A stretch of 45,653 bases of DNA from an uncultured Candidatus Saccharibacteria bacterium (GTDB taxonomy: Bacteria > Patescibacteriota > Doudnabacteria > UBA920). Below the pieces are notes generated by a model that was given only the letters and a program-made list of their open reading frames with translations, did no database searches and was not told the origin of the DNA. The position numbers and the translations under genes are program-made. The stretch lies in NCBI GenBank assembly GCA_964524735.1, contig CAZGCV010000004.1:1-45653 (forward strand), in the 5' to 3' direction. Positions 7,176-43,655 of this stretch are shown in pieces (positions within the stretch are counted from its first letter, which is position 1; every line of letters begins with the position of its first letter).

Positions 7176-7176
7176 T

Positions 7177-9095: not shown

Positions 9096-9500
9096 ATGAA
9101 ACTAAAAACAATTTTACTTACACTCGCTGGCGTTATTTTTTCTTTTGGAATTTTGATGCCAAGCTCTATTCCTGCAATGGCACAGCCAAGTGGAAGCGGG
9201 GATGCAGCTCAGCAAGGACTTGATGCAATAGGTGGCGCATTTCCTCAAGGCGCTCGCCAGGCAAACTATGATATTCAATCAGTAACAAAGAGAGTAATTG
9301 ACTGGGCTTTGTACATAGCTGCTATTGTTGCTGTAATTTACATTATTATCGGCGGATATTTTTACATTACTTCTGCTGGAAACGCCACACAAGCAGGAAA
9401 AGGAAAATCAACTTTGGTGAATGCATTAATTGGTTTAACTTTAATTATTCTTTCTTACGTAATAGTACAGATTGTGTACAATTTCTTAACAAGACCATAA
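9096..9500 (+). CDS. VirB2/TrbC-like pilin paralog F
   Basis: Signal peptide (..PAMA-QP) and C-module IGGYFYITSAGNATQAGKGKSTLVNALIGLTLIILSYVIVQIV. Confidence 0.65.
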   Translation: MKLKTILLTLAGVIFSFGILMPSSIPAMAQPSGSGDAAQQGLDAIGGAFPQGARQANYDIQSVTKRVIDWALYIAAIVAVIYIIIGGYFYITSAGNATQAGKGKSTLVNALIGLTLIILSYVIVQIVYNFLTRP

Positions 9501-9517
9501 TTCACACATTTAGAATC

Positions 9518-17960: not shown

Positions 17961-18437
17961 ATGTTAACTATTCGTTTACAGCGCGCTGGCAGAAAAAACA
18001 AAGCTGATTTCAGAATTGTTTTGGCAGAAAAAACTGCAGCTAGCCAAAAGAAGTTTACCGAAGTTATCGGTGCTTACAACCCACATACTAAAGCGTTGCA
18101 TATTCGTGATGAAGCTCGTTTGAACTACTGGGTAAATGAACAGCATGTAGATATCTCTGCAACTGTTCGCAATCTATTTATTTCAAAAGATTTGATCAAA
18201 GGCGGTAAAGTAAAAGCTTTCACTGTTCCTAAGAAAGAAGTGGCTCCAGAAGAAACTCCAGCTCCTGCAGCTGAAGAAAACACTGAAGCAAAATCAGAAA
18301 TTACAGAAGAAACTGAAAAGCCTGCAGAAGAACTAGCTGAAAAAGTTGAAGAAAATGCTCCTGAAGCTGTAGCTGAGACTCCAGCTGAAGCTGCTGAACC
18401 AGCAACTGAAGAATCAAAAGAAGAAGCACAGGCTTAA
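17961..18437 (+). CDS. rpsP: 30S ribosomal protein S16 with a roughly 70-aa acidic P/E/A-rich C-terminal extension
   Basis: N-terminus MLTIRLQRAGRKNKADFRIVLAEK...GAYNP. The tail is APEETPAPAAEENTE... Confidence 0.9.
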   Translation: MLTIRLQRAGRKNKADFRIVLAEKTAASQKKFTEVIGAYNPHTKALHIRDEARLNYWVNEQHVDISATVRNLFISKDLIKGGKVKAFTVPKKEVAPEETPAPAAEENTEAKSEITEETEKPAEELAEKVEENAPEAVAETPAEAAEPATEESKEEAQA

Positions 18438-18441
18438 ATAA

Positions 18442-18474
18442 AAAAATCCCGTCCACAAGCGGGATTTTTATTTT
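18442..18474 (+). terminator. Rho-independent terminator after rpsP
   Basis: AAAAATCCCG-loop-CGGGATTTTTATTTT. Confidence 0.75.
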
Positions 18475-18485
18475 CCCCAAGTTTT

Positions 18486-18494
18486 TGGTATAAT
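18486..18494 (+). promoter_or_regulatory. Extended -10 promoter TGgTATAAT
   Basis: TATAAT at 18489-18494, upstream of the ORF at 18527. Confidence 0.45.
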
Positions 18495-18526
18495 AAATCT
18501 GTTAAAAATAACTTAACGAAACAAAA

Positions 18527-19021
18527 ATGAATTACAATGATTCAATCAAAAAAGTTTTAGTGGTTCTAATTATGATAGTAGCTTTGGCTGCTGCTGTAAC
18601 TGTAGTTATGACTTTCTTTATGAAGAAAGACAAAGCTGAGAATCCTAGATCAGAAGAAGTAAGGCAAGAGATAACGAAAACCGAAGTAGAAGCAAACAAA
18701 GACCCTGAAAAATTCCCAACTGGGATTCCTATAGAATCTGGCGCTAAAATTACCCAGAACTATAATGCTACAGCTGCAGATGGTCGTTTCCAAGCTACAA
18801 AAGTTTTTGAAACTAACCGAACTTTGGCGCAGAATCTGACTACGTATCAGGAATATATGAGAAGTAACGGTTGGGAAATTCAAAGTACTGTAGATGAAGA
18901 AAACTATAAAATGGTTTTCGGAACTAAAGAAGGTGAAACGCTTCAAGTGAGCATAGATAACAACTTGGCTCAAAACATTAAATCAGTAAACATTTCTTAT
19001 ACTGAAATCTCGCAGAAATAG
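18527..19021 (+). CDS. N-terminally membrane-anchored hypothetical protein (164 aa)
   Basis: One TM segment (VLVVLIMIVALAAAVTVVMTFF) followed by a hydrophilic domain. Has its own promoter and terminator. Confidence 0.4.
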   Translation: MNYNDSIKKVLVVLIMIVALAAAVTVVMTFFMKKDKAENPRSEEVRQEITKTEVEANKDPEKFPTGIPIESGAKITQNYNATAADGRFQATKVFETNRTLAQNLTTYQEYMRSNGWEIQSTVDEENYKMVFGTKEGETLQVSIDNNLAQNIKSVNISYTEISQK

Positions 19022-22107: not shown

Positions 22108-22138
22108 TTTAGTATAAAGTCCACAAAAAGAAACAAAA

Positions 22139-24655
22139 ATGAAAATTAAGAAAATATTTTTAAGCTTTGCAGCGGTATTTGTCACAATATCGTCTTTTGG
22201 TTTTACAGGATTAATCCAAAAGGAAGACGTTACTTCATTAATTGAACCTGTAAAAGAAGCTAAGGCTCAGTATTGTGGGGCTCCTTCAGAAATTGAAGCA
22301 GGCACAACAGGATGGTTTTCCGTAGAAATTCAATCTCCTTGGAGTGGTGCTTGTATGCCTGGAAGTGTTGATTCAAATGTTCCAGGAATTATTTTCGGCC
22401 AGCAGTATGAGCGATGTGATGACCAGGCTGGTTGGTGGAACTGGGAGTATTCAACTTCATATAATGCAAATAACTACGCAAATATCACTTCTCCTCAAAC
22501 GATTGGTGTTATGGTTAGTTCTATGTCAGGAACAGGCGGTGAATGTGAGGCCTTTCAAGATTACGTAGAAATTACCATAGTTCCAAATGGATGGTACAAT
22601 CAGGACTTTAATATTAGCTGTTCTCCTGCTTCAAGAACTATTACAGCAGGAAGCTCTGCATCAGTAACAATTTCTACAACTAAAACAGGCGCATTTAATA
22701 GTCCTGTGAATGTGACTCATTCAATTTCACCTGGTGGTAATCAGCCGACTATTAGCTATACAAACAATAACCAGATTCCTCCAGCGACAACTACTGCTAA
22801 TATTTCAACAACTACTTCAACAAGCGCAAATACTTATACGATTGTATTTACGGCTTCAGGAGGTTCAATTACTAAACAGTGCAGTGTTTCTTTAACTGTA
22901 AACCCGTCTGTTCCAATCGTTGGTGGCGGCACAACTCAGTTGGCTGTGTATCAAACACCAACAGCAACATTTCAAATTAATGGCGCAGCTTCATCTACTA
23001 TTAATCAAGGACAAACAGCTGTATTAAGCTGGCAGCCAAGCGCTACTAATAGCGGCACTGCTTGTACTGCTGGTAATGCATGGGGTGGTGCTAAAAGCAG
23101 TACTCCTGGATCAAATTATTCAGAAGTTATTGGCCCTTTAAATACTCCAGGTACTTATACTTACACTATTCAGTGTTCAGGTGCTTTAAGTTCATTTAGT
23201 CCTACTTACTCTGTTACTTTAACTGTTCAAGCTTTGGTGCCAACATCTGACATTAAAGCAAATGGTTCAGATGGACCAATTACAATTCCATATAACACCG
23301 CAGCAACTATCACATGGACTTCTACTAATACAACTTCTTGTACTGTAAGTCCTTCAAGTTGGACTGGGGTAACTGGAAGTCAGTCAACTGGAGCATTAAC
23401 TTCTGCAAGAACTTATACATTGTCATGTACAGGTCCTGGTGGAAACACAACAGACTCAGTTACAGTGAACGTAACTAACCCATCTTTTTCTATTAACTGT
23501 ACTCCGGCAACAACAACTATTATTGCTGGTAGTTCAACTTCATACATCATTACTGTAAGTGGTCAGAATGGTTTCTCAGGGCAAGTAAGTTTTAGTTCTA
23601 ATGTTTCTGGTCCTGCAATTGGTAAAAATCAAACAGCGCCTAATATTACTTTTAGCCCAAATCCAAGCGGTACTGGTACTGTAACTGGTTTGGTAACAAC
23701 GAGTCCTTCAACCACTCCAAGCGGTACTTATACAATTACTATTACAGCTGCGAGCGCGGGATTTGCTAACCAGACTTGTAACGTACAGCTGGTAATTAAC
23801 CCGGCAACCCCTCCTAACCCTCCAACAAATGTAGCTGTTTCAAATTCAGGGCAATGTGGAACTATAGATATTTCTTGGAGAAATAGCACTGGTTCACCTA
23901 CTCCAGTTGCGTATCGTGTATACCGAAGAATTTCTCCTACAGATCCTTGGCAGCAGCTTGGAGCAGATATTCCTTATACTGCCGGCGCTGCGCATGTATA
24001 CTCTCTAAGAGATAACACTCCATTAAGTTTGGCAGGGTCTAACTACTATGCCGTAGCTGCTGTAGCAAACAGTGTTGAATCTACATACGCATCAGCAAGT
24101 CCGTCTCCAATAGTTCCAGTTGCTTGTACTCCAAACTTGGGTAGTTCCGATAAAGACGTACTAAGTGTTTCTGGAAGAATCAACCGTACATTTACTCCAA
24201 TACAATGTTCTGGAACATCAGAAACTGCTGCATTACCTAATGGCGCATTGTATGCTCCTGGTGATGTAGTAACTTTCCAAATTAACGTATGTAACACTGG
24301 AACCCAAGAACTTACTGGAGTTCAGGTCACAGATACATTTACTAATTTGTCTAACATGACAGTGTTGCCTTCTGTTCCACCTGGATGTGTTACTGGAAGT
24401 TCTGTAAATGCCAACAACGTCACATTTAGCTTGGCTAATGTTGCTGCTAATAATGGTATTTGTGCAATTCGCTTGCGAGGAACAGTTACTGCTCCCGCAA
24501 ACCCTACTGCTGCAATTTATAGATTCCAGAACAGAGCTATAATTACAGGAAATGGAGGTAGTGTTACTCGAGAAGTGTATACTCCACCTTACTTGTTTAG
24601 TGTAACTGGTGGTACACCAGATCGCGGTGAAACTGCTCCTCCTCGCCCTCAATAA
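22139..24655 (+). CDS. Large secreted multidomain surface protein (838 aa): Ig-like repeats, FN3-like and DUF11-like domains
   Basis: Signal/anchor N-terminus. Two copies of the Cys-bracketed domain shared with 20141. Two W..C..C Ig-like repeats, an FN3-like segment (PTNVAVS..ISWRNS..YRVYRR), and a DUF11-like VTFQINVCNTGTQELTGVQVTDTF. Confidence 0.7.
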   Translation: MKIKKIFLSFAAVFVTISSFGFTGLIQKEDVTSLIEPVKEAKAQYCGAPSEIEAGTTGWFSVEIQSPWSGACMPGSVDSNVPGIIFGQQYERCDDQAGWWNWEYSTSYNANNYANITSPQTIGVMVSSMSGTGGECEAFQDYVEITIVPNGWYNQDFNISCSPASRTITAGSSASVTISTTKTGAFNSPVNVTHSISPGGNQPTISYTNNNQIPPATTTANISTTTSTSANTYTIVFTASGGSITKQCSVSLTVNPSVPIVGGGTTQLAVYQTPTATFQINGAASSTINQGQTAVLSWQPSATNSGTACTAGNAWGGAKSSTPGSNYSEVIGPLNTPGTYTYTIQCSGALSSFSPTYSVTLTVQALVPTSDIKANGSDGPITIPYNTAATITWTSTNTTSCTVSPSSWTGVTGSQSTGALTSARTYTLSCTGPGGNTTDSVTVNVTNPSFSINCTPATTTIIAGSSTSYIITVSGQNGFSGQVSFSSNVSGPAIGKNQTAPNITFSPNPSGTGTVTGLVTTSPSTTPSGTYTITITAASAGFANQTCNVQLVINPATPPNPPTNVAVSNSGQCGTIDISWRNSTGSPTPVAYRVYRRISPTDPWQQLGADIPYTAGAAHVYSLRDNTPLSLAGSNYYAVAAVANSVESTYASASPSPIVPVACTPNLGSSDKDVLSVSGRINRTFTPIQCSGTSETAALPNGALYAPGDVVTFQINVCNTGTQELTGVQVTDTFTNLSNMTVLPSVPPGCVTGSSVNANNVTFSLANVAANNGICAIRLRGTVTAPANPTAAIYRFQNRAIITGNGGSVTREVYTPPYLFSVTGGTPDRGETAPPRPQ

Positions 24656-29236: not shown

Positions 29237-30847
29237 ATGAATACAGCTCCGCATATTAGCACATATACTATTTCATATAACAATAAAAAAAAGAAGAGCG
29301 TAGCTTTTAATCTAAATAAGCTTGTGATCTCCTTTTTTATTACCGCTTTAGTTTTTAATCAGTTTTTCTTGCCAGTCGAAACTGTAGTGGCTGCTGACTA
29401 CATACCAGTTTCTTCTTGCCAAGACCTTCAAGATATAAATCAAGATTTAACAGCTAATTACGTACTTCAAAATGATATTGATTGTAGTGGTTTTGACTTT
29501 ACTCCAATTACGACAGAAGATGGCGATCCTTTTACTGGAGTTCTTGATGGTAATAATTTTAAGATAGATAATTTGAGTATAATTGATCCTGAGGGTTTTT
29601 CTGCATTATTCGTGCGTACTAACGGGGCTGAAATAAAAAATTTAAAAATCTCTAATTTAGAGATAGAATCTCTTGCTTGCTCCGCATCTTTAGTTGTTTT
29701 GGCTTTCGAAAATTTGATTATTGATAATGTAAATGTCAACGGTTCGTTAGTTGATTTTTCCACTTCAGAATGTGCTAGCGGTGGGTTAGTTGGGTATTAT
29801 GGTAGTTCTGATGAGTCTGGTAATTTAACAATTAATAGAAGTTCATTTATAGGAACAATTTCTTCACAAATTACCGCGGGTTTAATTGGAATAGCTGTTT
29901 CAGGTGAGGTCGTAATTGAAAACTCCTACACACAAGGATCAATAACAGCAGAAAATGCTAGTGGTGTTTTGTTAGCGGGTCTGTTTAGTTCTATTATTAT
30001 AAATAACTCGTATTCAAGCATGGATTTGTATGTCCCTGGAACCGAATCTGCTTATGTTCCTGATCTTTTAAATGCAGGGATGGTGGCAGTAGCAACTGAT
30101 TTAGATATTTCAAATTCTTTTTACTCTGGTCATATATATATGAGCGAAGAAGATGGTGTGGCTGGAGGAATAACAGCATATCCAGTAAATTCTTCAGGTT
30201 TTACTACATTAGTTGATAATGTGTATTATTTTCTTCCTGAAGAAAGTGATTTACCTTGTATTTATTACGCGCCAGATGCAGATGCAGATGTTGTTGATTG
30301 TCCTTCAGTAGCCAGTCAAGATTATTTTAAAGGGTTGGATGTACAAAGCCGCAATCCTTTCAGTGCTTGGGATTTTGAAGATGTGTGGACAGCTAAAGCA
30401 GGAGACTTTCCAATTTTAAAGAGTTTGACTGCTCCAGAACCGAACCCTTCAACTCCTAGAAGATCTGGCAGTGTTATTAGAAAACCGGAGCAGGATATTG
30501 TAGTGCCATCAGGATTATCGTATGAAGAGTTAAAAAATAGCTTTACTAACAGTAATGGTAATCTGCCTCAAAATAATTTTAGATTTACAAGGAATTTAGG
30601 ATTAGGAAGTAATAGTAGCGATGTGAAATATCTTCAAGAGTTTTTGAATAAGAATAATTTTATGGTTTCTGATAGTGGAGCAGGGTCAGTTGGGAAGGAG
30701 ACAAATTATTTCGGGATAAAAACATATAATGCTGTGCGTAAATTTCAGGAAGCTTATCCTCAGCATATACTGACACCTTTGAATTTAATTAGAGGAACAG
30801 GTTTCTTCGGTGACAAAACAAGAGAGTTTGTGAACACGCTGTTTTAA
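29237..30847 (+). CDS. Surface protein with GLUG-type repeats and a C-terminal peptidoglycan-binding (PG_binding_1) domain
   Basis: TM/signal N-terminus. YVLQNDIDCSG..FTGVLDGNNFKIDNLSI, repeated GGLVG/AGLIG/AGGIT motifs, and C-terminal SDVKYLQEFLN..FGIKTYNAVRKFQEAY. Confidence 0.6.
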   Translation: MNTAPHISTYTISYNNKKKKSVAFNLNKLVISFFITALVFNQFFLPVETVVAADYIPVSSCQDLQDINQDLTANYVLQNDIDCSGFDFTPITTEDGDPFTGVLDGNNFKIDNLSIIDPEGFSALFVRTNGAEIKNLKISNLEIESLACSASLVVLAFENLIIDNVNVNGSLVDFSTSECASGGLVGYYGSSDESGNLTINRSSFIGTISSQITAGLIGIAVSGEVVIENSYTQGSITAENASGVLLAGLFSSIIINNSYSSMDLYVPGTESAYVPDLLNAGMVAVATDLDISNSFYSGHIYMSEEDGVAGGITAYPVNSSGFTTLVDNVYYFLPEESDLPCIYYAPDADADVVDCPSVASQDYFKGLDVQSRNPFSAWDFEDVWTAKAGDFPILKSLTAPEPNPSTPRRSGSVIRKPEQDIVVPSGLSYEELKNSFTNSNGNLPQNNFRFTRNLGLGSNSSDVKYLQEFLNKNNFMVSDSGAGSVGKETNYFGIKTYNAVRKFQEAYPQHILTPLNLIRGTGFFGDKTREFVNTLF

Positions 30848-36767: not shown

Positions 36768-36799
36768 GAAAAACAGCGTTGACAAAACGCTGTTTTTTT
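36768..36799 (+). terminator. Terminator after clpP with a promoter nested inside it
   Basis: AAAAACAGCGT-TGACAAA-ACGCTGTTTTTTT. Confidence 0.8.
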
Positions 36800-36807
36800 G
36801 ATATACT
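36779..36807 (+). promoter_or_regulatory. Promoter TTGACA-17 nt-TATACT for the HTH/tail-fibre-like module (about 95-nt leader)
   Basis: TTGACA at 36779-36784 (in the terminator loop) and TATACT at 36802-36807. Confidence 0.55.
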
Positions 36808-36906
36808 AAAAAGGTAAAAGTATCGGATGACCGAGCAGTATAGTCAAAATCAGCTATATTCGCAAAAATCGGACATTTAGAAACAAAAATAAAAACACAA
36901 TTCAAT

Positions 36907-37155
36907 ATGTCTGAGAATCAAAAACAGCTTTTAGCTGATCCGACAAAGCTAATTTCTTTGTCTGAAGCTGCAGAAGCAACGCCTTATTCTGCGGAGTATC
37001 TATCTTTACTTTCACGTAAAGGTAGAATTCCAGCAATTAAAATTTCACGTGACTGGCTTACGACTCGTAAGGCGGTTTTGTTGTATGTAAGCGAGCAGAA
37101 AAAGAAACATGCTGAGTTGTTTAAAAGATTTAAAACATCTGGAGGATTACGCTAA
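36907..37155 (+). CDS. Small excisionase/MerR-like helix-turn-helix protein (82 aa)
   Basis: LISLSEAAEATPYSAEYLSLLSRKGRIPAIKISRDWLTTRKAVLLYV resembles an HTH_17-type winged HTH. Its stop overlaps the next start (TAATG). Confidence 0.55.
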   Translation: MSENQKQLLADPTKLISLSEAAEATPYSAEYLSLLSRKGRIPAIKISRDWLTTRKAVLLYVSEQKKKHAELFKRFKTSGGLR

Positions 37156-40100
37156 TGCCACAAATTACAGTAAATTTGATTCATGATTTAAAAAAAGCTC
37201 ATGAACATAAGGAAAAAGTGCCATTTATTGGTGGTTTGCGAACTGGATTTGTTCACGCATGGTTTGTAACCGCAGTTAAGGTGATGTTTATTTTTGCGCT
37301 ATTGTCAGGAGTGGATATTGTAGGAAAACTGCAAGAAAATGTTGTTTTGCTAGACCAATTGGTTGGTAATGATTTTACTGTCAATTCAGAAGATAGCTTG
37401 CCTAAGCGCATTGTTATTCGTGACAATAATTTTATGCCTAGAGGGGAATCTTTTGGAGTAGTGGCATCTGAATTTTCTGATAATTCTAGTATGCAGACTA
37501 ATGGTGTAGTTGCGAGTGAAAACACTGTTGTTGTAAATAATATTCAAAATGCTCCTGTTTCAGGATCAGGAATTACGCAATCATATATTGATGAACTAAT
37601 TCGTTATAATATTGCGAATGCAATTGCAGCTCGTTTTTTACTTCCAGGAACAGGCGATAACAGCGATGGTTGTTTGCAAATTGATCGTGCTGGTACAGTA
37701 ACCACTCGCGGATCTCGTTGTGGTTCCGGCGGAGGCGGTGGAGGAGGTTCATCTCCAGCTAACTTGTCTATTGGTAGTATTATTTCTGGCGCGACTCCGA
37801 ATTCTATCTTGTTTGTTGGTGCTGGCGGTGAACTTGCTCAAGACGCCGCGAATCTATTTTGGGATGACGCAAATAACAGTTTAGTTATCGATGGCGAAAT
37901 GCTTGTGACAAGCTTGGCTACTGGTGGCGCTACTGAGTGTGTTCAGGCAAATATATTAGGTGTTCTATCAACTACTGGCGCTCCCTGCGGAGCAGGCGGT
38001 GGTGGAATGTCTATTGGTGGATCAATCACTTCTGCAACAACAGGTTCAGTTCTTTTTGCAGGAGCTGCTGGTGTTCTACAACAAGACAATGCTAACTTCT
38101 TCTGGGATGACACAAACAACAGACTTGGTATTGGAACTGCTTCTCCTATAGCGCCTTTGCATGTTGGAGGTTCAAATAATTTCGGGAGTGTTTCCCTGTT
38201 TGGTTACAGCGGAGCTGTAAATACATACATCAACCCAGTATACAGTACAGACACTGGAACTGATCAGGTTACTGCTAATACAGCTTTACTTGAGTTAACT
38301 AACAGCTCTCAGGCAGATATGGTATCTTTCTCTGGACAAACAGGAGTTGTGATTAACTCTTCTTCCGCAGATATGGCATCAACATATTCTCAAATGATTG
38401 GCGGAGCATTTTATTCAGGCTTGTACGGTACAGGCTCTATCTACGGAGCAACTGGTGTTATGGGTATAGTTATGCGAGCTAATAGTGGTACTGTTGAATC
38501 TGCTCAAGGTGGATACTTCGCATTCCAGAATGCTAATGGCACGGGGACTACATCATCGGTTATAGGTGTTAATATTGGACAACCAGTTAGTCCAGCAGGC
38601 CACACTATTACCAGTACTTTTGGTCTATATATCGCAGACCAGACTAACATAGGAGGAGGTACTCAAACCAACACACCTTATGGTATTTACCAGGCTGGTG
38701 CTTCTAACCTTAACTATTTTGGAGGGACTATTACTGCTCCTGGAGCAGGTGCAAGTTCTGAACGGTTTGGGTTTGGAAGCAGTGCTGATGGTGCAAGTGC
38801 AACTGCTTTGGGGTGGCTTTCAAGTGCTTCTGGTGACGGAGATTTAGCGGTAGGGGGTGGAGCGGAATCTAGCGGCGGATATTCAATCGCAATCGGATAC
38901 GGAGCACAATCAACAGGTGTACAAGGTATATCTTTAGGGTTCACTGCATCTGCTTCAGGTAATGCAAGTGTGGCTTTGGGTAATTTTGCTTCAGCATCAA
39001 GTGTTATGGGTCATGCTTTTGGGTATAGTGCAACATCTAGTGCTCTAGGTGGCTTGGCTATTGGTCAAGCTGCAACCGTAAATGGCACTGCTGGAATTGC
39101 TTTAGGTGGGGGTACTGCAGCAGGTGCGCATGAGTTAGTAATTGGCGGCGAGTATGATACTTTTAACTCCATTGATTATGGGATTAATAATGTTTACATT
39201 GGTAATGGAGTAACTAACGCTACTCCTCAAAGTTTTGCGCTAAACGCTACGGGCGGACAAGGTGCTAACATAGCTGGAGCAAACATCGCTATAGCTGGTG
39301 GTAAAGGAACAGGAAGTGCTGTTGGTGGAAACATTCTTTTCCAATATGCTCCAGCAGGATCTTCTGGATCATCTCTTAATTCATTACAAACAGCTTGTGC
39401 TATTTCAGGTACTAATGGAAGTTTAAACTGTCCTGGTACAGGCGCTTTTTCTGCTAGATTTGGTTCTGGTGCAACAGCTGGTGGGCTCGGTGCTAATGCT
39501 TTTGGTACTAATGCTAATGCAGGAGGTTTGAGCGCTGCAGCGTATGGAGGTAATGCATACGCTCCATCTGATTATGCTACTGCTTTAGGTTCATTAGCCT
39601 CATCTTTGGGTCCTAACTCTGTAGCAGCTGGTGCATTGGCTACTGCTTATGATAATGGTTCTGCTTTTGGGGCATATGCTTTTGCAAACAATAATTCCAT
39701 TGCTCTAGGATATTCTGCAGCAACATCAGCAGCCAACCAACTTGTCATAGGATCAGGATCTGCATCTATTCAAACAGCATACATTGGTAACGGAGTAACT
39801 AACGCTACTCCTCAAGGATTCTCTCTTAATGCAACAGGCGGTAGTGGAACAAACATTGCTGGAGCAAACATGACTCTAGCATCAGGACGTGCTACAGGAA
39901 ACGCAGCTGGTGGAAACATTCTTTTCCAGACATCAGATGTAGGATCTTCAGGATCAACACTACAAACTCTTACTACCAAAGCTACTCTCTTAGCTAATGG
40001 TAATTTTGGTATAGGGACAGCGGCTCCAGCTTTAAAATTTAGCGTAGAAGCAGACGCAGCATCATCGTATGTAGCAAGCTTTCAAAACACTGGAAACAAC

Positions 40101-40949
40101 GCCAATAGATATGGTATTCAAATCCAAGCTGGTGCAGACGATGGTAGTGGAACAACGTATTACCTCAACGCTCTAGACGGTGATGGTACTCAAGTAGGAT
40201 ACATCTCAAGAACAGGTGGTACTTTTGCACTAACTGATGTTTCTGATTTTAGAACAAAGACCAATATTCAAAACTCTGAAGTAGACGCTATGGAAGTCCT
40301 TACTGGTCTTCGTGTAGTGGATTTCAATCGTTTGGCAGATCCAAATGGAGCTGTTATTACAGGCTTCATTGCTCAAGAAGTGCAGTCTGTATATCCGCAG
40401 ATTGTTACAACAGGAGAGAATGGAATGCTTGGAATCACCAAGGAGAATTTAATTCCTGTTCTTGTGAAAGGATTCCAGCAGCAGCAAAATCAGATTAACT
40501 CTTTGCTTAACCAAGTTAATTCCTTGCAAGGAAACTCTCAGGGAAACCTTTCAGGAAATACTCCAATTGTCCTAGCTCATCATCTGTATCTTTCAGAAGA
40601 TACTGTTGGGCAAGCTGAGATTTTAGCGGGAGAGAAGAGTGTTAGAATTACATTCACTCAGAATTATGAATATCAACCAATTGTAACTGTAACTCCACAG
40701 AGCCGTGTTGGTGGTGAATATTGGGTAAGCGACAAAGGCGCAACAGGATTCACTATTCACATTGAAGATGGAGCCTCAGATAATATTTTATTTGACTGGC
40801 ATGCCTTTGCTACGAAATCTATTCCTTTGCTGACAGTTGAATCAGCTCCTATTACACCTTCGTTGTCTTCGCCTATTGATGAAGATGGTGTTGTGGCAAC
40901 AGAAGAACAAGTTGATGATTCGTCTAATTCAAACGACCCCGTTAATTAA
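37155..40949 (+). CDS. Membrane-anchored giant tail-fibre-like adhesin (1264 aa) with YadA-head-like repeats and an S74-type intramolecular chaperone domain
   Basis: SD GGAGGA. TM at about aa 33-55, a poly-Gly run, and two FWDDxNNxL modules. Two roughly 195-aa modules contain Hep_Hag-like repeats plus YIGNGVTNATPQ..GGNILFQ. SDFRTKTNI...GFIAQEVQSVYPQ...LIPVLVKGFQ (endosialidase-chaperone-like) is followed by an extra C-terminal beta domain. Confidence 0.7.
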   Translation: MPQITVNLIHDLKKAHEHKEKVPFIGGLRTGFVHAWFVTAVKVMFIFALLSGVDIVGKLQENVVLLDQLVGNDFTVNSEDSLPKRIVIRDNNFMPRGESFGVVASEFSDNSSMQTNGVVASENTVVVNNIQNAPVSGSGITQSYIDELIRYNIANAIAARFLLPGTGDNSDGCLQIDRAGTVTTRGSRCGSGGGGGGGSSPANLSIGSIISGATPNSILFVGAGGELAQDAANLFWDDANNSLVIDGEMLVTSLATGGATECVQANILGVLSTTGAPCGAGGGGMSIGGSITSATTGSVLFAGAAGVLQQDNANFFWDDTNNRLGIGTASPIAPLHVGGSNNFGSVSLFGYSGAVNTYINPVYSTDTGTDQVTANTALLELTNSSQADMVSFSGQTGVVINSSSADMASTYSQMIGGAFYSGLYGTGSIYGATGVMGIVMRANSGTVESAQGGYFAFQNANGTGTTSSVIGVNIGQPVSPAGHTITSTFGLYIADQTNIGGGTQTNTPYGIYQAGASNLNYFGGTITAPGAGASSERFGFGSSADGASATALGWLSSASGDGDLAVGGGAESSGGYSIAIGYGAQSTGVQGISLGFTASASGNASVALGNFASASSVMGHAFGYSATSSALGGLAIGQAATVNGTAGIALGGGTAAGAHELVIGGEYDTFNSIDYGINNVYIGNGVTNATPQSFALNATGGQGANIAGANIAIAGGKGTGSAVGGNILFQYAPAGSSGSSLNSLQTACAISGTNGSLNCPGTGAFSARFGSGATAGGLGANAFGTNANAGGLSAAAYGGNAYAPSDYATALGSLASSLGPNSVAAGALATAYDNGSAFGAYAFANNNSIALGYSAATSAANQLVIGSGSASIQTAYIGNGVTNATPQGFSLNATGGSGTNIAGANMTLASGRATGNAAGGNILFQTSDVGSSGSTLQTLTTKATLLANGNFGIGTAAPALKFSVEADAASSYVASFQNTGNNANRYGIQIQAGADDGSGTTYYLNALDGDGTQVGYISRTGGTFALTDVSDFRTKTNIQNSEVDAMEVLTGLRVVDFNRLADPNGAVITGFIAQEVQSVYPQIVTTGENGMLGITKENLIPVLVKGFQQQQNQINSLLNQVNSLQGNSQGNLSGNTPIVLAHHLYLSEDTVGQAEILAGEKSVRITFTQNYEYQPIVTVTPQSRVGGEYWVSDKGATGFTIHIEDGASDNILFDWHAFATKSIPLLTVESAPITPSLSSPIDEDGVVATEEQVDDSSNSNDPVN
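39207..39815 (+). repeat. Internal duplication of about 585 nt in the tail-fibre-like gene, with an exact 24-nt core
   Basis: GGAGTAACTAACGCTACTCCTCAA occurs at 39207-39230 and 39792-39815. The flanking protein sequence is about 60-70 percent identical across roughly 195-aa units. Confidence 0.85.
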
Positions 40950-40992
40950 TTTAACAGGGTCTTTATTTTGTTTAATAATTAAACTTTTAAAA

Positions 40993-43560
40993 ATGATACT
41001 AAAAAAATATTCAATATTCTCCATGGCGATAATTCTGATTTTTGCCTCGTTTGGTTTTTCTGAGAAAGCGTCTGCGGCATTTTTCTATCCATCTAATGGC
41101 GCAGAATTTCAGCAGGCATTGGACGATGCAAATTTAGGAGATGAAATTGTGTTAACTGCAGGCACAACTTATATAGGAGATTTTGTGCTCCCATATAAAT
41201 CTACCGGATCCGGTTATGTGACAATTCGATCTTCAATGCTTGATCAAATGCCGGAAGGAAAGCGCGTAACTCCAGCAGATGCAAACAAAATGCCAAAAAT
41301 CCGCGCGGCTAATATTTATTCCGCAGCGATATCAACTGGAATATCAGGCGGTAATCCCGCACATCATTACAAACTGCTTGGGTTAGAAGTGGTGCGTTTG
41401 CCAGGAGCAGGGTTGAATTACAATTTAATAGATTTAAGTACCGAGGACACTACTTCTTTATCTGAGGTTCCTCACGATATTATTATTGATCGCAGTTATG
41501 TGCATGGTTTAGATGGTGCGATGACTCGCCGTGGTTTGTTTTTGAACTCAAAAGACACGGAAATCACAAATAGTTATTTTTCAAAGTTCTTTGATGATGG
41601 AGCAGATTCGCAAGCCATTTTGGGTATCGGCGGTCCGGGCGGGTATTTAATTTCCAATAATTATTTAGAAGCAGCTGGTGAAAACATTATGTTTGGCGGC
41701 GGTGACCCTTCTATTATTAACTTAGTGCCTTCAGATATAGTTATTGAGAATAATCACATTTTTAAACCATTGTCTTGGAAAGGTAATGAGCCGGGCGTGG
41801 TGAAGAATCTTCTCGAACTGAAGAATGCAAAGAATGTGATTATCAGAAATAATATTCTTGAAAATAACTGGCCAGCTGGACAAGGTGGTACCGCAGTTCT
41901 GTTTACTGTTCGCAATCAGGATGGTACAGCGCCATGGTCTACTGTAGAAGATGTGCTTTTTGAATACAACATTATTAAAAATGTTCCTTCTGCTGTTACT
42001 ATTTTGGTAAGTGATGATGAAAGTAATAGTCAATCAGAAAAAAATATTACGATTCGAAATAACTTTATTCAATTCGATCCTACACATAATGGCAACGATC
42101 GTACTTTTGCAATCATGACTGGTCAATTAAACGGCGATCCGGGCGAGAATATTATTATCGAACATAACACTTCAATTCGTTATGGGTCCGCAGGAGAATA
42201 TTACACTCCGTATATATATTTTGGAGATGAAGCAGGTGGCTTCTTGGATGGTATTGATATCAATAATAATATTGAAGCTATGACTTCGCCATTAACTATC
42301 TGGGCTGGTCTGTTGTGGGTAGGGCAAGTTGACGGAGTTGCTCCTGAAGACGGTATAGATACTTTAAATCATGTTGCTTACAACAATAATTGGAGTTATT
42401 CAAAAAATGTTATTACTACAGGAGGTAATTCAATAGACTATCCTTTAACTTCTAGTTATGTTAATGATATTGAAGCGGTGGGATTTGAAGATGTTGGTAA
42501 CGAAATTTTTAAGCTTGCCAACAACTCTCCATTTAAAGGAGACTCAACAACTCCAGGCACTGATCCTGGTGTTAATTGGGATGAGCTGATGTCCCGTACA
42601 GAAAATGTTGTTAGTGGCGATTATTCTGAAAACCCTCCACAGGACACAACACCTCCATCAGTTTCAATAACTGCTCCATCTGCAAGTACTACTGTTAGCG
42701 GTTCAACAGTTACAGTAAGTGCTAACGCTTCAGATAACGTTGGAGTTGCTGGTGTTCAGTTTCAGTTAAATGGTTCTAATTTAGGAGCGGAAGATACTCA
42801 AGCTCCTTATAGTATTGTGTGGGATACAACACAAGTTACTAATGGGTCTTATACTCTAACTGCCATCGCTCGCGATGCGGCACATAATACCACTACTTCT
42901 TCCTCGGTAAATGTTAACGTTAATAACGTTACTCCACCGTCTAGCGGTGGAGGCGGTGGCGGAGGAGGTAGTAGAAATACTTCTCCGACTGTGCCAACTT
43001 CTAATGCATCATCAAGATTAATAAATAGTAACGGAACTTATTATTTAATTCAGAACGGCCAGAAAAAAGGAGTTACCTCTCCTGGTATTCTGAATTCATG
43101 CGGATTTGAATTCAAAGATGCTATGCAAGCTACAGCTGCAGACAGCTCATTGCCAATAAACTCTCTACTGCTTCCGTGTGGCGGATCCTTGGTAAAGAGT
43201 TATGAAGATCCTACTGTCTATTTAGTATCAAACGGAAAAAGATATGCATTTACTTCCGCTAGCGTATTTGCAGGAATGGGTTACAAGTTTTCTTCAGTGC
43301 TAATTGTAACTAATCCTGAATTGCAGGCGTTGCAAAGAGGTGTTGATCTGACTAATCCTGATTTAGCTCATTTGCCACAGACTAATATAAATATTAATGG
43401 AACTATTTATTGGATCGACTTAACTGGTAAGAAGCAACCTTATCCTTCCCTTGAAGTTTATAATTCGTGGAATGTAGATAATGATTTTTCAAATGTAGTG
43501 CCAGCAAATTCCGCAGATTTAGCTCTGCCTACAGGAGGGTCAGTAATTCCTCGTATGTAA
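40993..43560 (+). CDS. Secreted right-handed beta-helix protein (polysaccharide lyase/depolymerase-like) with an Ig-like domain and three C-terminal repeats
   Basis: Start trimmed to MILKKYS (signal ..EKASA-AF). PbH1-like turns (ENNHIF, IRNNILENN, YNIIKN, IRNNFIQ, IEHNTS). Ig-like VSGSTVTVSANASDNVGVAGVQFQLNG..APYSIVWDT..YTLTAIARDAAHN, then a poly-Gly run and three repeats of about 60 aa (TVYLVSNGKRYAF-type). Confidence 0.65.
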   Translation: MILKKYSIFSMAIILIFASFGFSEKASAAFFYPSNGAEFQQALDDANLGDEIVLTAGTTYIGDFVLPYKSTGSGYVTIRSSMLDQMPEGKRVTPADANKMPKIRAANIYSAAISTGISGGNPAHHYKLLGLEVVRLPGAGLNYNLIDLSTEDTTSLSEVPHDIIIDRSYVHGLDGAMTRRGLFLNSKDTEITNSYFSKFFDDGADSQAILGIGGPGGYLISNNYLEAAGENIMFGGGDPSIINLVPSDIVIENNHIFKPLSWKGNEPGVVKNLLELKNAKNVIIRNNILENNWPAGQGGTAVLFTVRNQDGTAPWSTVEDVLFEYNIIKNVPSAVTILVSDDESNSQSEKNITIRNNFIQFDPTHNGNDRTFAIMTGQLNGDPGENIIIEHNTSIRYGSAGEYYTPYIYFGDEAGGFLDGIDINNNIEAMTSPLTIWAGLLWVGQVDGVAPEDGIDTLNHVAYNNNWSYSKNVITTGGNSIDYPLTSSYVNDIEAVGFEDVGNEIFKLANNSPFKGDSTTPGTDPGVNWDELMSRTENVVSGDYSENPPQDTTPPSVSITAPSASTTVSGSTVTVSANASDNVGVAGVQFQLNGSNLGAEDTQAPYSIVWDTTQVTNGSYTLTAIARDAAHNTTTSSSVNVNVNNVTPPSSGGGGGGGGSRNTSPTVPTSNASSRLINSNGTYYLIQNGQKKGVTSPGILNSCGFEFKDAMQATAADSSLPINSLLLPCGGSLVKSYEDPTVYLVSNGKRYAFTSASVFAGMGYKFSSVLIVTNPELQALQRGVDLTNPDLAHLPQTNININGTIYWIDLTGKKQPYPSLEVYNSWNVDNDFSNVVPANSADLALPTGGSVIPRM

Positions 43561-43587
43561 ACTTAAAGTAAGTTCGCAGATTGATAT

Positions 43588-43614
43588 AAGCGCCGCTAAT
43601 AGCGGCGCTTTTTC
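43588..43614 (+). terminator. Rho-independent terminator
   Basis: AAGCGCCGCT-AAT-AGCGGCGCTT followed by TTT. Confidence 0.8.
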
Positions 43615-43655
43615 TTTTGATTTTCTAAAGCTATAATATATGTACATTTTGCAAA

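What the first reader, a model, noticed from the sequence alone, without database searches (positions are those of the whole stretch)
36779..43560. Chromosomal three-gene module: HTH protein, giant tail-fibre-like adhesin and beta-helix depolymerase-like protein, with no other phage genes
One promoter (36779-36807) and one terminator (43588-43614) bracket three genes. The first is an 82-aa excisionase-like HTH protein. The second is a 1264-aa membrane-anchored protein that combines trimeric-adhesin (YadA-head/Hep_Hag-like) repeats with phage tail-fibre hallmarks: FWDDxNNxLGIGT motifs and an endosialidase-type intramolecular chaperone domain beginning at SDFRTKTNI. The third is an 855-aa secreted parallel beta-helix protein with an Ig-like domain, the architecture typical of phage tailspike depolymerases and polysaccharide lyases. 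The flanking genes are core housekeeping (clpP upstream, an exonuclease downstream). The window contains no integrase, capsid, terminase, baseplate or att-like tRNA junction. This looks like a domesticated tail-fibre plus depolymerase pair used as a cell-surface device. In an ultra-small episymbiont, a plausible role is recognising and locally degrading the host cell envelope or capsule, with a dedicated small DNA-binding partner. I do not know of this organisation being described as a system.
Basis: partly seen in the sequence, partly recalled or inferred. Interest (0 to 1): 0.85.

Follow-up and report, generated by a model that had tools for sequence, protein, structure and literature searches.

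The report
Self-regulated giant surface fibre cassette
The three genes are real, but only the first two belong together: across ultra-small (CPR) bacteria a small DNA-binding protein is always coupled, or in other lineages physically fused through a membrane anchor, to a giant cell-surface fibre, which suggests a previously undescribed way for these cells to control or sense their main surface adhesins.

Summary
All three ORFs, the promoter, the terminator and the domain calls hold up. The window is a whole 45.6-kb Patescibacteria contig with no phage genes. The trio is not a conserved unit. The beta-helix N-domain is absent from all 83 loci fetched through the HTH gene. One syntenic relative has the HTH-giant pair without it, and another has a beta-helix homologue without the pair. 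A terminator-like hairpin and a promoter-like site separate genes 2 and 3.

The conserved unit is the HTH gene plus a giant ORF that overlaps its stop codon, seen in every split locus. In other CPR classes one to three HTH copies are fused through a linker and a single transmembrane helix to proteins of up to 6,890 aa. The HTH profile finds 1,497 representative clusters at E<=1e-10.

The pair has a conserved leader: a consensus promoter, an invariant GTATCGG box near the start site that is palindromic in fused loci (20-40-fold enriched), and a covarying RNA hairpin.

Best reading: an autoregulated, N-terminally membrane-anchored, probably trimeric adhesin fibre with a self-cleaving S74 chaperone, next to an independent secreted polysaccharide-lyase-like enzyme. 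No phage origin is shown. I found no description of the HTH-giant coupling.

The parts
36769..36797 (+). Stem-loop ending the clpP unit (AAAAACAGCG-TTGACAAAA-CGCTGTTTTT plus T-run). Its loop carries the -35 hexamer of the next promoter.
36779..36807 (+). Sigma-70-type promoter: TTGACA, 17 nt, TG-extended TATACT.
   Evidence: Scores 11/12, the best in the region. The same TTGACA-N17-TGCTATAAT lies upstream of the HTH gene in about 25 related loci.
36820..36830 (+). GTATCGGATGA box, the candidate operator of the HTH protein. It starts 13 nt after the -10 hexamer, so it lies at or just after the transcription start.
   Evidence: TATCGG.T is invariant in the leader alignment A3. The box occurs once per locus, always upstream of the HTH gene. 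It is enriched 19-fold, and 39-fold, often as palindromes, in fused and Fic-HTH loci.
36836..36861 (+). Leader RNA hairpin: 9-bp stem with conserved loop CAAAAYYA.
   Evidence: 88.9% of cells paired against 25-40% in slid controls. Eight of 9 pairs show compensatory changes, G-U pairs are present, and 0 of 500 shuffles reach the observed values. The leader folds with z = -3.57. No Rfam match.
36880..36906 (+). Conserved A/C-rich, G-poor tract (GAAACAAAAATAAAAACACAATTCAAT) directly before the AUG. There is no Shine-Dalgarno sequence.
36907..37155 (+). Gene 1: 82-aa Xis/MerR-type winged-helix protein with a long C-terminal helix. Its recognition helix and wing are nearly invariant (TPYSAEYLSLLxRKGRxPAxKISRDWLTT).
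37139..37143 (+). GGAGG Shine-Dalgarno sequence for the giant gene, inside the end of the HTH ORF. The HTH stop codon (TAA) overlaps the giant gene's ATG by 1 nt.
   Evidence: Overlaps of 1, 4 or more nucleotides (up to about 50) are seen in every split locus.
37155..40949 (+). Gene 2: 1264-aa giant surface protein.
37155..37313 (+). Conserved basic N-terminal tail (aa 1-30, predicted cytoplasmic) and single transmembrane signal-anchor (aa about 31-53).
   Evidence: Hydropathy, with positive charges before the helix. aa 1-280 are conserved in L001, L002 and L004-L008.
37755..38138 (+). Two copies of a module of about 85 aa, each ending in FWDDxNNxL(G/V)I(G/D)(T/G) and each preceded by a Gly run.
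   Evidence: This is the stretch shared by most of the 119 listed homologues.
38706..39764 (+). YadA/EibD/Hep_Hag-like head repeats (aa 518-693 and 769-870). Each is followed by a repeated GNGVTNATPQ...GGNILFQ unit.
40242..40406 (+). Peptidase_S74 intramolecular-chaperone domain, starting at S1030-D-F-R-T-K1035.
   Evidence: 40.3 bits against a cut-off of 22. PHROG tail-fibre C-terminal hits. PDB 8jov. The Ser-x4-Lys spacing is kept in relatives.
40572..40814 (+). Conserved domain after S74 (aa about 1140-1220). Its fold was not determined.
   Evidence: Conserved in L001-L008, L015, L018 and L021. In the CPR proteins 125-400 aa follow the S74 domain.
40935..40972 (+). Terminator-like hairpin across the stop codon of gene 2, followed by TTTATTTTGTTT.
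   Evidence: dG -12.9, z -3.59
40951..40979 (+). Promoter-like site (TTAACA-17-AATAAT) in front of gene 3.
   Evidence: 10/12 matches. This is a consensus match only.
40993..43560 (+). Gene 3: 855-aa secreted protein made of four parts. A signal peptide ends at ASA|A (aa 1-28). A right-handed beta-helix covers aa 30-540 (41080-42612). A Big_7 Ig domain covers aa 555-624 (42655-42864). An uncharacterised triple-repeat C-terminal domain covers aa 667-855 (42991-43557). This gene is not part of the conserved cassette.
43588..43620 (+). Intrinsic terminator: 10-bp stem, 7 GC pairs, T-run.

Best explanation
The region holds two independent units that share a variable slot between clpP and the exonuclease gene.

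Unit 1 (36779-40972) is a self-contained cassette for a giant surface fibre.
- Shown: a near-consensus promoter; an invariant GTATCGG box at or just after the start site; a covarying RNA hairpin; an SD-less A/C-rich leader; an 82-aa Xis/MerR-type winged-helix gene; and a giant gene whose ATG overlaps the HTH stop codon behind a GGAGG.
- Shown: this pairing is universal in relatives. In other CPR classes it is replaced by one polypeptide with the order HTH(x1-3), linker, one TM helix, giant remainder.
- Inferred: the HTH binds the GTATCGG box and autoregulates the operon. Because translation of the two genes is coupled, regulator output follows fibre output.
- Inferred: in fused relatives the HTH is a membrane-tethered, ToxR-like regulator.
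- Inferred: in this window the free HTH may dock, through its long C-terminal helix, on the conserved 30-aa cytoplasmic tail of the fibre.
- Inferred for the giant protein: it is inserted N-in/C-out by its signal anchor and trimerises. The YadA-like beta-roll heads and the S74 chaperone occur in proteins known to be trimers. It then cuts itself at Ser1030, shedding the C-terminal chaperone and the domain after it. The result is an N-terminally anchored fibre that most likely binds a host or partner cell surface. Its variable middle between conserved ends fits diversifying recognition.

Unit 2 (40951-43620) is a separately inherited secreted enzyme. It has a right-handed beta-helix resembling polysaccharide lyases, a Big_7 domain and a C-terminal repeat domain shared with other secreted proteins of this island. 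It probably acts on an extracellular polysaccharide.
For: Pairing of the HTH and giant genes.
- The HTH stop codon overlaps the start of an ORF of 900 to more than 3,300 aa in L001, L002, L003, L004 and L005-L032.
- These pairs sit in different genomic neighbourhoods: after rpoBC, beside ACR_tran, and after clpP. Several genomes have two copies.

Fusion.
- About 40 loci from Paceibacteria-type MAGs have the HTH at the N-terminus of ORFs of 893 to more than 3,400 aa, followed by a TM helix 80-170 aa further on.
- L073 has HTH_17 at aa 31-80 and S74 at aa 1441-1496 in one protein.
- The HTH profile finds 4,353 representatives. Of the top 147, 119 have tandem HTH copies. The 34 that are at least 800 aa long (up to 6,890 aa) have the order HTH, TM helix (detected in 33 of the 34), long remainder.

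HTH fold. The AF2 model has pLDDT 87.6. It matches TraN, RdfS, Pukovnik Xis, BldC, RacA and MerR-family structures at rmsd 1.8-2.6 A over 48-58 residues.

Candidate operator.
- Box density is 2.26/kb upstream of the HTH against 0.12/kb elsewhere.
- In 49 distant loci the density is 4.8/kb, and 27 have at least two boxes, typically ATCCGATAC-N3-GTATCGGAT just before the ORF.
- Extra box arrays in L019 and L020 precede extra HTH genes.
- The same boxes precede Fic proteins with this HTH in archaea and other bacteria.

Leader RNA. Covariation is strong.

Fibre. S74 scores above the Pfam cut-off, and the head-repeat hits are as listed under the observation check. The ends are conserved and the middle is not.

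Independence of gene 3.
Against: - No experiment exists, and DNA binding by this HTH is inferred from co-occurrence only.
- The box also lies in the transcribed leader, so it could act as RNA.
- The window's own box (GTATCGGATGA) differs from the consensus at two positions and is a single copy.
- HTH_17 and YadA_head are below the Pfam cut-offs, and the Foldseek E-values for the small HTH domain are not significant (0.07-0.6).
- About half of the HTH-linked giants lack S74, so the S74 fibre is one of several ectodomain types.
- Some split-type giants have a cleavable AxA|A signal peptide and no cytoplasmic tail. The HTH cannot dock on those.
- Trimerisation, cleavage and binding of a host surface are inferred from family knowledge.
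- The internal terminator and promoter between genes 2 and 3 are pattern matches, so read-through co-transcription of gene 3 is not excluded.
Confidence: 0.6

Rival explanations
1. An obligate three-gene device in which a domesticated phage tail fibre and a domesticated tailspike depolymerase work together under a dedicated HTH to recognise and locally degrade the host envelope.
For: The three genes are adjacent, on the same strand, and lie between a strong promoter and a strong terminator. S74 and PHROG tail-fibre hits are present. The beta-helix model also matches phage tailspikes. L007 has a third-position secreted protein that shares the Big_7 and C-terminal domains.
Against: The beta-helix N-domain is absent from all 83 HTH-anchored loci. 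L004 has the pair alone, and L092 has the beta-helix homologue alone in the same slot. A terminator-like hairpin and a promoter-like site separate genes 2 and 3. The beta-helix family is cellular and sits in EPS clusters elsewhere. Only one phage record matches the fibre, and only in the S74 part.
Confidence: 0.07
2. The HTH-like domain is not a transcription regulator. It is a cytoplasmic protein-protein or nucleoid-anchoring module. RodZ, whose HTH binds MreB, and RacA, which tethers DNA to the pole, are precedents. On this view it fixes the base of the giant fibre to an internal structure or assists its export. The conserved box and hairpin would then act as RNA elements bound by something else.
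For: The domain is fused in front of a TM helix in thousands of proteins. The near-invariance of the domain contrasts with hypervariable ectodomains. The box is inside the transcribed leader and next to a covarying RNA hairpin. RacA is among the structural matches. The fused clade keeps a signal peptidase I gene directly upstream.
Against: The palindromic arrangement ATCCGATAC-N3-GTATCGGAT immediately upstream of HTH-bearing genes is what a dimeric or tandem DNA-binding HTH would be expected to recognise. It also occurs with soluble Fic-HTH proteins that have no giant partner. All close structural matches bind double-stranded DNA.
Confidence: 0.17
3. The HTH is a true excisionase or recombination-directionality factor that drives phase or antigenic variation of the giant gene by site-specific recombination.
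For: The best PHROG hits are excisionases. The RdfS and Xis structures match. The middle of the giant genes is variable. GTATCGG boxes occur as repeats in some loci.
Against: No integrase or recombinase is present in the contig or recurrent among neighbours of 60 loci. The box sits at a fixed position at the promoter and does not flank an invertible segment. A membrane-tethered fusion is hard to reconcile with an excisionase role.
Confidence: 0.04
4. The region is a remnant of a prophage tail module.
For: PGAP names relatives 'tail fiber domain-containing protein'. S74 and beta-helix folds are common in phage tails.
Against: The whole contig is housekeeping genes. The synteny of RNase Y ... 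NusA-ClpP | slot | RNase_T-HhH-GPD is kept in relatives. The HTH family and the leader pattern are absent from 2.9 million viral contigs. Composition shows no break beyond the Gly/Ala-rich gene itself.
Confidence: 0.02

Closest known systems
Phage endosialidase and tail-fibre proteins with a C-terminal intramolecular chaperone (Peptidase_S74; e.g. K1F endoNF, T5 L-shaped fibre)
   Same: An S74 domain scoring above the Pfam cut-off, with the SDxRxK start. It sits at the far end of a long, repeat-rich and probably trimeric rod whose other end is the attachment end.
   Different: The protein is attached to a cell membrane by an N-terminal TM helix, not to a virion. About 180 further residues follow the S74 domain. 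There is no phage context. Homology to phage proteins is limited to the S74 region.
Trimeric autotransporter adhesins (YadA, EibD, Hep_Hag proteins)
   Same: Head-type repeat sequence similarity at aa 518-693 and 769-870. Presumed adhesive surface fibre.
   Different: There is no C-terminal beta-barrel anchor, and the polarity is opposite (anchored at the N-terminus). The host organism is not a classical diderm. The Pfam and NCBIfam scores are far below the membership cut-offs.
ToxR/CadC/TcpP-type membrane-integrated one-component transcription regulators
   Same: In the fused relatives the order is an N-terminal cytoplasmic winged-helix domain, a single TM helix, and an extracytoplasmic domain, with a candidate operator at the protein's own promoter.
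   Different: The DNA-binding domain is Xis/MerR-type (often in tandem), not OmpR-type. The ectodomain is a fibre of 1,000-6,800 aa rather than a small sensor. In this window the HTH is a separate polypeptide.
MYRF, a eukaryotic membrane-tethered transcription factor with an S74-type auto-processing domain (from my own knowledge)
   Same: It combines a DNA-binding domain, a TM helix and an S74 chaperone/self-cleavage domain in one gene product or operon.
   Different: In MYRF the S74 domain lies between the DNA-binding domain and the TM helix, and its cleavage releases the DNA-binding domain. Here S74 is at the extracellular far end, so its cleavage cannot free the HTH.
Small Xis/MerR-fold DNA binders (BldC, RdfS, TraN, phage Xis) and Fic proteins with a C-terminal HTH
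   Same: The fold. Fic-HTH proteins carry the same HTH subtype and the same TATCGG palindromes upstream.
   Different: No recombinase partner. The dedicated coupling or fusion to giant membrane proteins has not been described for those families.
PL6/PL31 polysaccharide lyases and phage tailspike depolymerases (for gene 3)
   Same: A right-handed parallel beta-helix with an N-terminal cap motif. The best structural matches are 6kfn and PL6 lyases, followed by tailspikes.
   Different: The catalytic residues were not identified. The protein has a Sec signal peptide, Big_7 and a novel C-terminal repeat domain, and lacks a virion-binding N-domain. It belongs to a large cellular family.
RodZ (HTH, TM helix, periplasmic domain)
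   Same: A bitopic protein with an N-terminal cytoplasmic HTH.
   Different: RodZ has an Xre-type HTH that binds MreB, and its ectodomain is small.

Membership tests
Peptidase_S74 / intramolecular-chaperone fibre proteins | PF13884 match at or above the gathering score | tested here: met
   40.3 bits against 22; aa 1030-1084; profile positions 1-57 of 58
Peptidase_S74 / intramolecular-chaperone fibre proteins | Catalytic Ser with Lys five residues later at the start of the domain (SDxRxK; motif from family knowledge) | tested here: met
   S1030-D-F-R-T-K1035. The same spacing is seen in 25 of 44 related domains exactly, and as S-x4-K in most of the others.
Peptidase_S74 / intramolecular-chaperone fibre proteins | Trimerisation and autoproteolytic release of the C-terminal part | not testable with these tools
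   Needs multimer modelling or proteomics.
Phage tail module / prophage | Neighbouring virion, terminase or integrase genes, or presence on viral contigs | tested here: not met
   None in the whole contig. The HTH family and the leader are absent from IMG/VR. One phage hit, restricted to the S74 part.
Trimeric autotransporter adhesins | YadA-type head repeats | tested here: inconclusive
   Pfam YadA_head scores 21.5 against 25. PDB hits: EibD 1.2e-5, YadA 1e-4, Hep_Hag 6e-3. NCBIfam scores 28 bits against 750.
Trimeric autotransporter adhesins | C-terminal YadA-type beta-barrel membrane anchor | tested here: not met
   No such Pfam hit. The C-terminus is S74 followed by an unknown domain, and the anchor is an N-terminal TM helix.
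Excisionase / HTH_17 (MerR-superfamily winged helix) | PF12728 match at or above the gathering score | tested here: not met
   19.2 bits against 27 for the window protein. Fused relatives score 20.8 and 25.1. A few family members carry a precomputed PF12728 hit.
Excisionase / HTH_17 (MerR-superfamily winged helix) | beta-alpha-alpha-beta-beta winged-helix fold | tested here: met
   AF2 pLDDT 87.6, with elements E15-17, H18-24, H29-38, E43-46, E49-53. Foldseek probabilities are 0.9-0.99 to TraN, RdfS, Xis and BldC, but E-values are 0.07-0.6.
Excisionase / HTH_17 (MerR-superfamily winged helix) | Works with a site-specific recombinase (for the excisionase function) | tested here: not met
   No recombinase in the contig or among recurrent neighbours.
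ToxR-like membrane-integrated transcription regulators | One polypeptide: cytoplasmic DNA-binding domain, single TM helix, external domain | tested here: not met
   In the window the HTH is a separate 82-aa protein. The feature is met in fused relatives.
ToxR-like membrane-integrated transcription regulators | OmpR-type winged-helix DNA-binding domain | tested here: not met
   The fold is Xis/MerR-type.
ToxR-like membrane-integrated transcription regulators | Sequence-specific binding to target promoters | not testable with these tools
   Comparative evidence only: box enrichment of 19-39-fold and palindromes.
Polysaccharide lyase / tailspike depolymerase (gene 3) | Right-handed parallel beta-helix | tested here: met
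   AF2 model, aa 30-540, pLDDT mostly above 90. Foldseek matches: PL31 6kfn 1e-5, PL6 lyases 1.7e-5 to 5e-4, tailspikes 3e-4 to 1e-3.
Polysaccharide lyase / tailspike depolymerase (gene 3) | Sequence membership in a defined lyase or hydrolase family, with its catalytic residues | tested here: inconclusive
   No Pfam beta-helix or lyase hit for the query. The profile matches only the 53-residue N-cap of 6kfn (2.2e-6). Catalytic residues were not examined.
Polysaccharide lyase / tailspike depolymerase (gene 3) | Virion-attachment N-domain and phage context (for a tailspike) | tested here: not met
   Sec signal peptide at the N-terminus. Homologues are cellular and sit in EPS clusters or in the same chromosomal slot.

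The most novel reading that the evidence does not exclude
The HTH-TM-giant architecture, and its split form in this window, is a CPR-wide contact-sensing circuit in which the giant adhesin is both the fibre and the sensor. Its own Xis/MerR-type DNA-binding module sits at the cytoplasmic base and reads out fibre production, occupancy or tension at the GTATCGG operator. It could do so on the gene that is being co-translationally inserted next to it. This would give ultra-small episymbionts a direct wire from host contact to transcription, with the leader hairpin as a second control layer.
Probability: 0.25. Interest if true: 0.85.

Novelty: new variant of a known kind. Interest (0 to 1): 0.6.

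Why it matters
How CPR/Patescibacteria recognise and respond to host cells is largely unknown, and their giant surface proteins are mostly unannotated.

This locus leads to a large family: 1,497 representative clusters at E<=1e-10. In this family a giant surface protein always comes with its own DNA-binding module, either translationally coupled or fused through the membrane. The family also has a predicted operator and a conserved leader RNA.

These features give concrete, testable handles: a 10-nt box, an 82-aa protein and a 26-nt hairpin. They can be used to study regulation of the main adhesins of these organisms, and they provide a simple sequence signature for finding such adhesins in metagenomes.

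The work also corrects an attractive but wrong reading. The 'tail fibre plus depolymerase' pairing is a chance neighbourhood in a variable surface-protein slot, not a system.

Tried and rejected
- Trio synteny. Testing from the HTH side (79 genome loci plus 4 look-ups) and from the beta-helix side (3 look-ups) found no second trio.
- Phage origin. The HTH profile and the leader pattern gave nothing in IMG/VR. The fibre run against 50,697 phage records gave one hit, to the S74 part only.
- PDB sequence search with the HTH profile gave only chance hits such as ankyrin and homeobox proteins. The fold had to come from AF2 and Foldseek.
- RNAalifold on the raw MAFFT leader alignment predicted no structure because the alignment is gappy. 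The hairpin was recovered by anchoring on the loop, then tested with the count of structure pairs.
- Rfam found nothing in the leader at the gathering or E-value thresholds.
- The metagenome scan with the box-plus-loop pattern gave 7 hits. Only two (L086, L090) are true HTH-giant loci. The other five, which represent two distinct elements, are best read as chance.
- Apparent exceptions where the HTH seemed to lack a giant gene (L025, L026, L029) were artefacts of my ORF filter or of runs of N.
- Programmed -1 frameshifting to fuse the HTH and the giant protein in the window was considered. A -1 shift would put the ATG in frame, but there is no slippery site, and a GGAGG sits 11 nt upstream. 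Termination-reinitiation coupling is the simpler reading.
- The local Pfam copy lacks PF26696 and PF26209, which are listed for many fibre homologues. The FWDD module could therefore not be named.
- The C-terminal 190 aa of gene 3 had no Pfam hit, and the AF2 model there has low confidence.

Full report
OBSERVATION

The three ORFs are present at the stated coordinates: 36907-37155 (82 aa), 37155-40949 (1264 aa) and 40993-43560 (855 aa). The window is a complete NCBI contig of 45,653 bp, because all three proteins are recorded on a 'longest contig' of that length. There is therefore nothing outside it to inspect.

The rest of the contig is housekeeping. It encodes FtsH, RNase III, SMC, S16, TrmD, RluD, SOD, AhpC, RNase Y, YmdB, NusA, ClpP, an RNase_T exonuclease, an HhH-GPD glycosylase, two tRNAs and the start of the 16S rRNA gene. 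It also encodes typical CPR proteins such as T4SS_pilin. No integrase, capsid or terminase was found. Homologues carry Patescibacteria, Doudnabacteria, Moranbacteria or 'Saccharibacteria' labels.

DOMAIN CLAIMS

- The giant protein has a Peptidase_S74 domain above the Pfam cut-off (40.3 bits against 22; aa 1030-1084). It starts with SDFRTK.
- It has two FWDDxNNxL.I motifs, at aa 234-247 and 315-328.
- Its YadA-type head similarity is below the Pfam cut-off. It is supported by PDB sequence hits to EibD (1.2e-5), YadA (1e-4) and Hep_Hag and by NCBIfam.
- It has one N-terminal hydrophobic helix (aa about 31-53) preceded by a basic tail. This predicts an N-in/C-out signal anchor.
- The 82-aa protein scores below the cut-off for HTH_17 (19.2 against 27). 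An AlphaFold2 model (pLDDT 87.6) shows beta-alpha-alpha-beta-beta plus a long C-terminal helix. Its best structural neighbours are TraN, RdfS excisionase, Pukovnik Xis, BldC, RacA and MerR-family proteins, at rmsd 1.8-2.6 A over 48-58 residues. The E-values are not significant for so small a domain.
- The 855-aa protein has a signal peptide ending ASA|A and a Big_7 domain (7.6e-21). Pfam finds no beta-helix. The model has a confident right-handed beta-helix at aa 30-540. Its nearest solved structures are the PL31 alginate lyase 6kfn and PL6 lyases, with phage tailspikes somewhat further away.

SIGNALS

The promoter at 36779-36807 (TTGACA-17-TG-TATACT) and the terminator at 43588-43620 are real pattern matches. 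However, a hairpin at 40935-40961 (dG -12.9 kcal/mol, z -3.6) followed by UUUAUUUUGUUU straddles the stop codon of the giant gene. A 10/12 promoter-like site at 40951-40979 precedes gene 3. Gene 3 may therefore be a separate transcription unit.

In contrast, genes 1 and 2 are tightly coupled. The HTH stop codon (TAA) overlaps the giant gene's ATG by one base, and a GGAGG lies 11 nt upstream.

IS THE TRIO A UNIT? NO

I fetched 79 genome loci through the HTH family and 4 further loci by exact look-up.

- tblastn with the beta-helix protein finds its N-terminal 550 residues in none of these loci.
- L004 lies on a 788-kb contig and is syntenic with the window: RNase Y, YmdB, methyltransferase, UPF0102, NusA, ClpP, then the slot, then RNase_T and HhH-GPD. 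Its slot holds a 356-aa protein, the HTH and a 1873-aa giant, with no beta-helix gene.
- L007 has the HTH, a giant and then a different 1234-aa secreted protein. That protein shares only Big_7 and the C-terminal 190-aa domain with gene 3.
- L092 has the same flanks but only a beta-helix homologue (P0129) in the slot, with no HTH-giant pair.
- Other beta-helix homologues sit in exopolysaccharide gene clusters. The family has 2,128 hits, many from Acidobacteria, with fusions to CBM6, VCBS or GT2 domains.

The two parts are therefore independent occupants of a variable slot.

WHAT IS CONSERVED: THE HTH-GIANT PAIR

- In every locus where the HTH is a separate ORF of about 80-136 aa, the next ORF starts within the last nucleotides of the HTH ORF. 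It is 900 to more than 3,300 aa long or runs off the contig. Three apparent exceptions were artefacts.
- The pairs sit in unrelated neighbourhoods, and several MAGs have two copies.
- In about 40 loci from Zambryski-, Kaiser-, Wolfe-, Taga- and Ryanbacteria and other Paceibacteria-type MAGs, the HTH is the N-terminus of the giant ORF itself. A single TM helix follows 80-170 residues later.
- L073 has HTH_17 at aa 31-80 and S74 at aa 1441-1496 in one chain.
- A full HMMER scan of 1.84 billion representatives with the HTH profile gave 4,353 hits at E<=1e-3 and 1,497 at E<=1e-10. Of the top 147, 119 carry two or three tandem HTH copies. The 34 that are at least 800 aa long (up to 6,890 aa) have the order HTH(s), linker, TM helix (detected in 33 of them), long remainder.
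- About half of the complete giants end in an S74 domain. In these CPR proteins it is always followed by another 125-400 residues.
- Among close relatives of the window protein, aa 1-280 and about 940-1262 are conserved and the middle is not.

A CONSERVED CONTROL REGION

Upstream of the HTH gene, about 25 loci share four elements in order:
- TTGACA-N17-TGCTATAAT;
- 12-13 nt later, the invariant box GTATCGG.T(A/G)(G/A);
- a hairpin;
- the G-poor tract GAAACAAAAAYAAAAACACAAT just before the ATG.

The box occurs once per locus, always upstream of the HTH gene. Its density is 2.26/kb in the 530 nt upstream against 0.12/kb elsewhere.

In 49 distant loci (fused CPR genes, and Fic proteins with a C-terminal HTH from archaea and other bacteria) the density is 4.8/kb. 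Twenty-seven of these loci have at least two boxes, typically as the palindrome ATCCGATAC-N3-GTATCGGAT just before the ORF. Secondary box arrays in L019 and L020 turned out to precede additional HTH genes.

An invariant recognition helix and wing (TPYSAEYLS...KISRDW) paired with an invariant, often palindromic box is what an autoregulatory operator would look like. This is inference, not demonstration.

The hairpin (window 36836-36861) has different stem sequences in different loci but a conserved CAAAAYYA loop. In the alignment, 88.9% of cells are paired against 25-40% in slid controls. Eight of 9 pairs show compensatory changes, G-U pairs are present, and 0 of 500 shuffles reach the observed values. 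It is therefore an RNA element on the sense strand. It has no U-tract and no Rfam match, and its role is open.

MECHANISM PROPOSED

Unit 1 is an autoregulated cassette.
- The HTH binds the box at the start site.
- Translational coupling ties HTH output to fibre output.
- The giant protein is inserted with its N-terminus inside the cell.
- By analogy with S74 and YadA-type proteins, it trimerises into a fibre. It then cuts itself at Ser1030 and sheds the chaperone and the domain after it.
- The fibre projects from the cell to bind a partner surface.
- In fused relatives the same module is a membrane-tethered regulator.

Unit 2 is an independent secreted enzyme resembling polysaccharide lyases.

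Shown: gene order, overlap, fusion, fold, box enrichment and RNA covariation. Inferred: DNA binding, the direction of regulation, trimerisation, cleavage and the binding target.

COMPARISON WITH WHAT IS KNOWN

- The fibre works like a phage S74 fibre turned into a cell appendage. It is not part of a phage, and only its S74 part resembles phage proteins.
- It is not a trimeric autotransporter, because it lacks the barrel anchor.
- The fused form resembles ToxR/CadC-type regulators in topology but has a different DNA-binding fold.
- MYRF also combines a DNA-binding domain, a TM helix and S74, but in a different order and with a different consequence (from my own knowledge).
- Full-text searches for CPR giant or surface proteins with HTH, S74 or tail-fibre terms found no description of this pairing. 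Absence from the held library is not proof of novelty.

VERDICT

The three-gene 'domesticated phage device' reading is not. The region instead exposes a widespread, apparently undescribed coupling between a Xis/MerR-type HTH and giant CPR surface proteins, with a candidate operator and a leader RNA hairpin. I rate it a new variant of known kinds (membrane-linked one-component regulation and S74 fibres), with interest 0.6.

Noticed in passing
L035-L082 (e.g. L073 9172-9714, L038 9153-9707): In the clade where the HTH is fused to the giant protein, 28 loci have a signal peptidase I gene (GDSMxPT ... GDNRxxSxDSR) upstream. In 25 of them it is directly upstream on the same strand. Five copies (L035, L036, L040, L046, L052) have a degenerate catalytic Ser box. 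This may mean that the long HTH-linker-TM segment is processed like an oversized signal peptide.
   Followed up: partly
L045 9024-9263(-), L047, L062, L065, L069, L071, L072, L080-L082: Ten fused-clade loci also carry a divergently oriented 75-80-aa MerR-type HTH gene (LTLRNWDKxGKL...NNYRxY) next to the lepB and giant genes.
   Followed up: no
L037, L039, L042, L048, L049, L051, L054-L056, L083: Outside CPR the same HTH subtype is the C-terminal domain of Fic/DOC proteins of about 315-360 aa (Nitrososphaera and relatives, Ardenticatenaceae, Saprospiraceae). The same TATCGG/CCGATA palindromes lie upstream of these genes.
   Followed up: partly
window 42991-43557; L007 about 18019-18582; L010 and L012 about 9196-9757; L018 8284-8625(-): The C-terminal 190 aa or so of the beta-helix protein look like three repeats of about 60 aa (G-T-x-Y-L-I-x-x-G-x-K ... 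F-x-x-x-G-F). The domain recurs at the C-terminus of other secreted proteins beside HTH-giant pairs. It has no Pfam match, a weak hit to an unannotated PHROG (9616), and a low-confidence AF2 model.
   Followed up: partly
L025-L031 (e.g. L025 10212-17021, L026 10204-17811): One sub-clade of split-type giants has a classical cleavable signal peptide, AxA|AFNxxINYQGKLTN, and conserved neighbours: a secreted fn3-like protein of about 445 aa upstream, and a TM protein of about 190 aa plus a secreted protein of about 370 aa downstream.
   Followed up: no
window 7102-8091 and 9518-10366: Two proteins with C-terminal T4SS_pilin domains, typical of Patescibacteria, flank the tRNA-Leu region.
   Followed up: no
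window 22130-24655: An 838-aa ORF (weak DUF7507 hit) is preceded by GAAACAAAAATG, the same A/C-rich SD-less leader type as the HTH gene. It may be another abundant surface protein.
   Followed up: no
window 29237-30847: A 536-aa protein with a PG_binding_1 domain and a weak match to the N-terminal region of M26 IgA1 metalloendopeptidase. It is a possible cell-wall-acting enzyme.
   Followed up: no
window 36769-36797: The clpP terminator hairpin carries the -35 hexamer of the HTH promoter in its loop, so termination of one unit and initiation of the next share the same 29 nt.
   Followed up: partly
L084, L087, L089 (about 1284-1326 in L084): Three metagenome contigs share a near-identical element that matches the box-plus-CAAAA pattern, preceded by the direct repeat CCTTATAGCAA, with no HTH gene nearby. 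It is probably a chance match to an unrelated repeat.
   Followed up: partly
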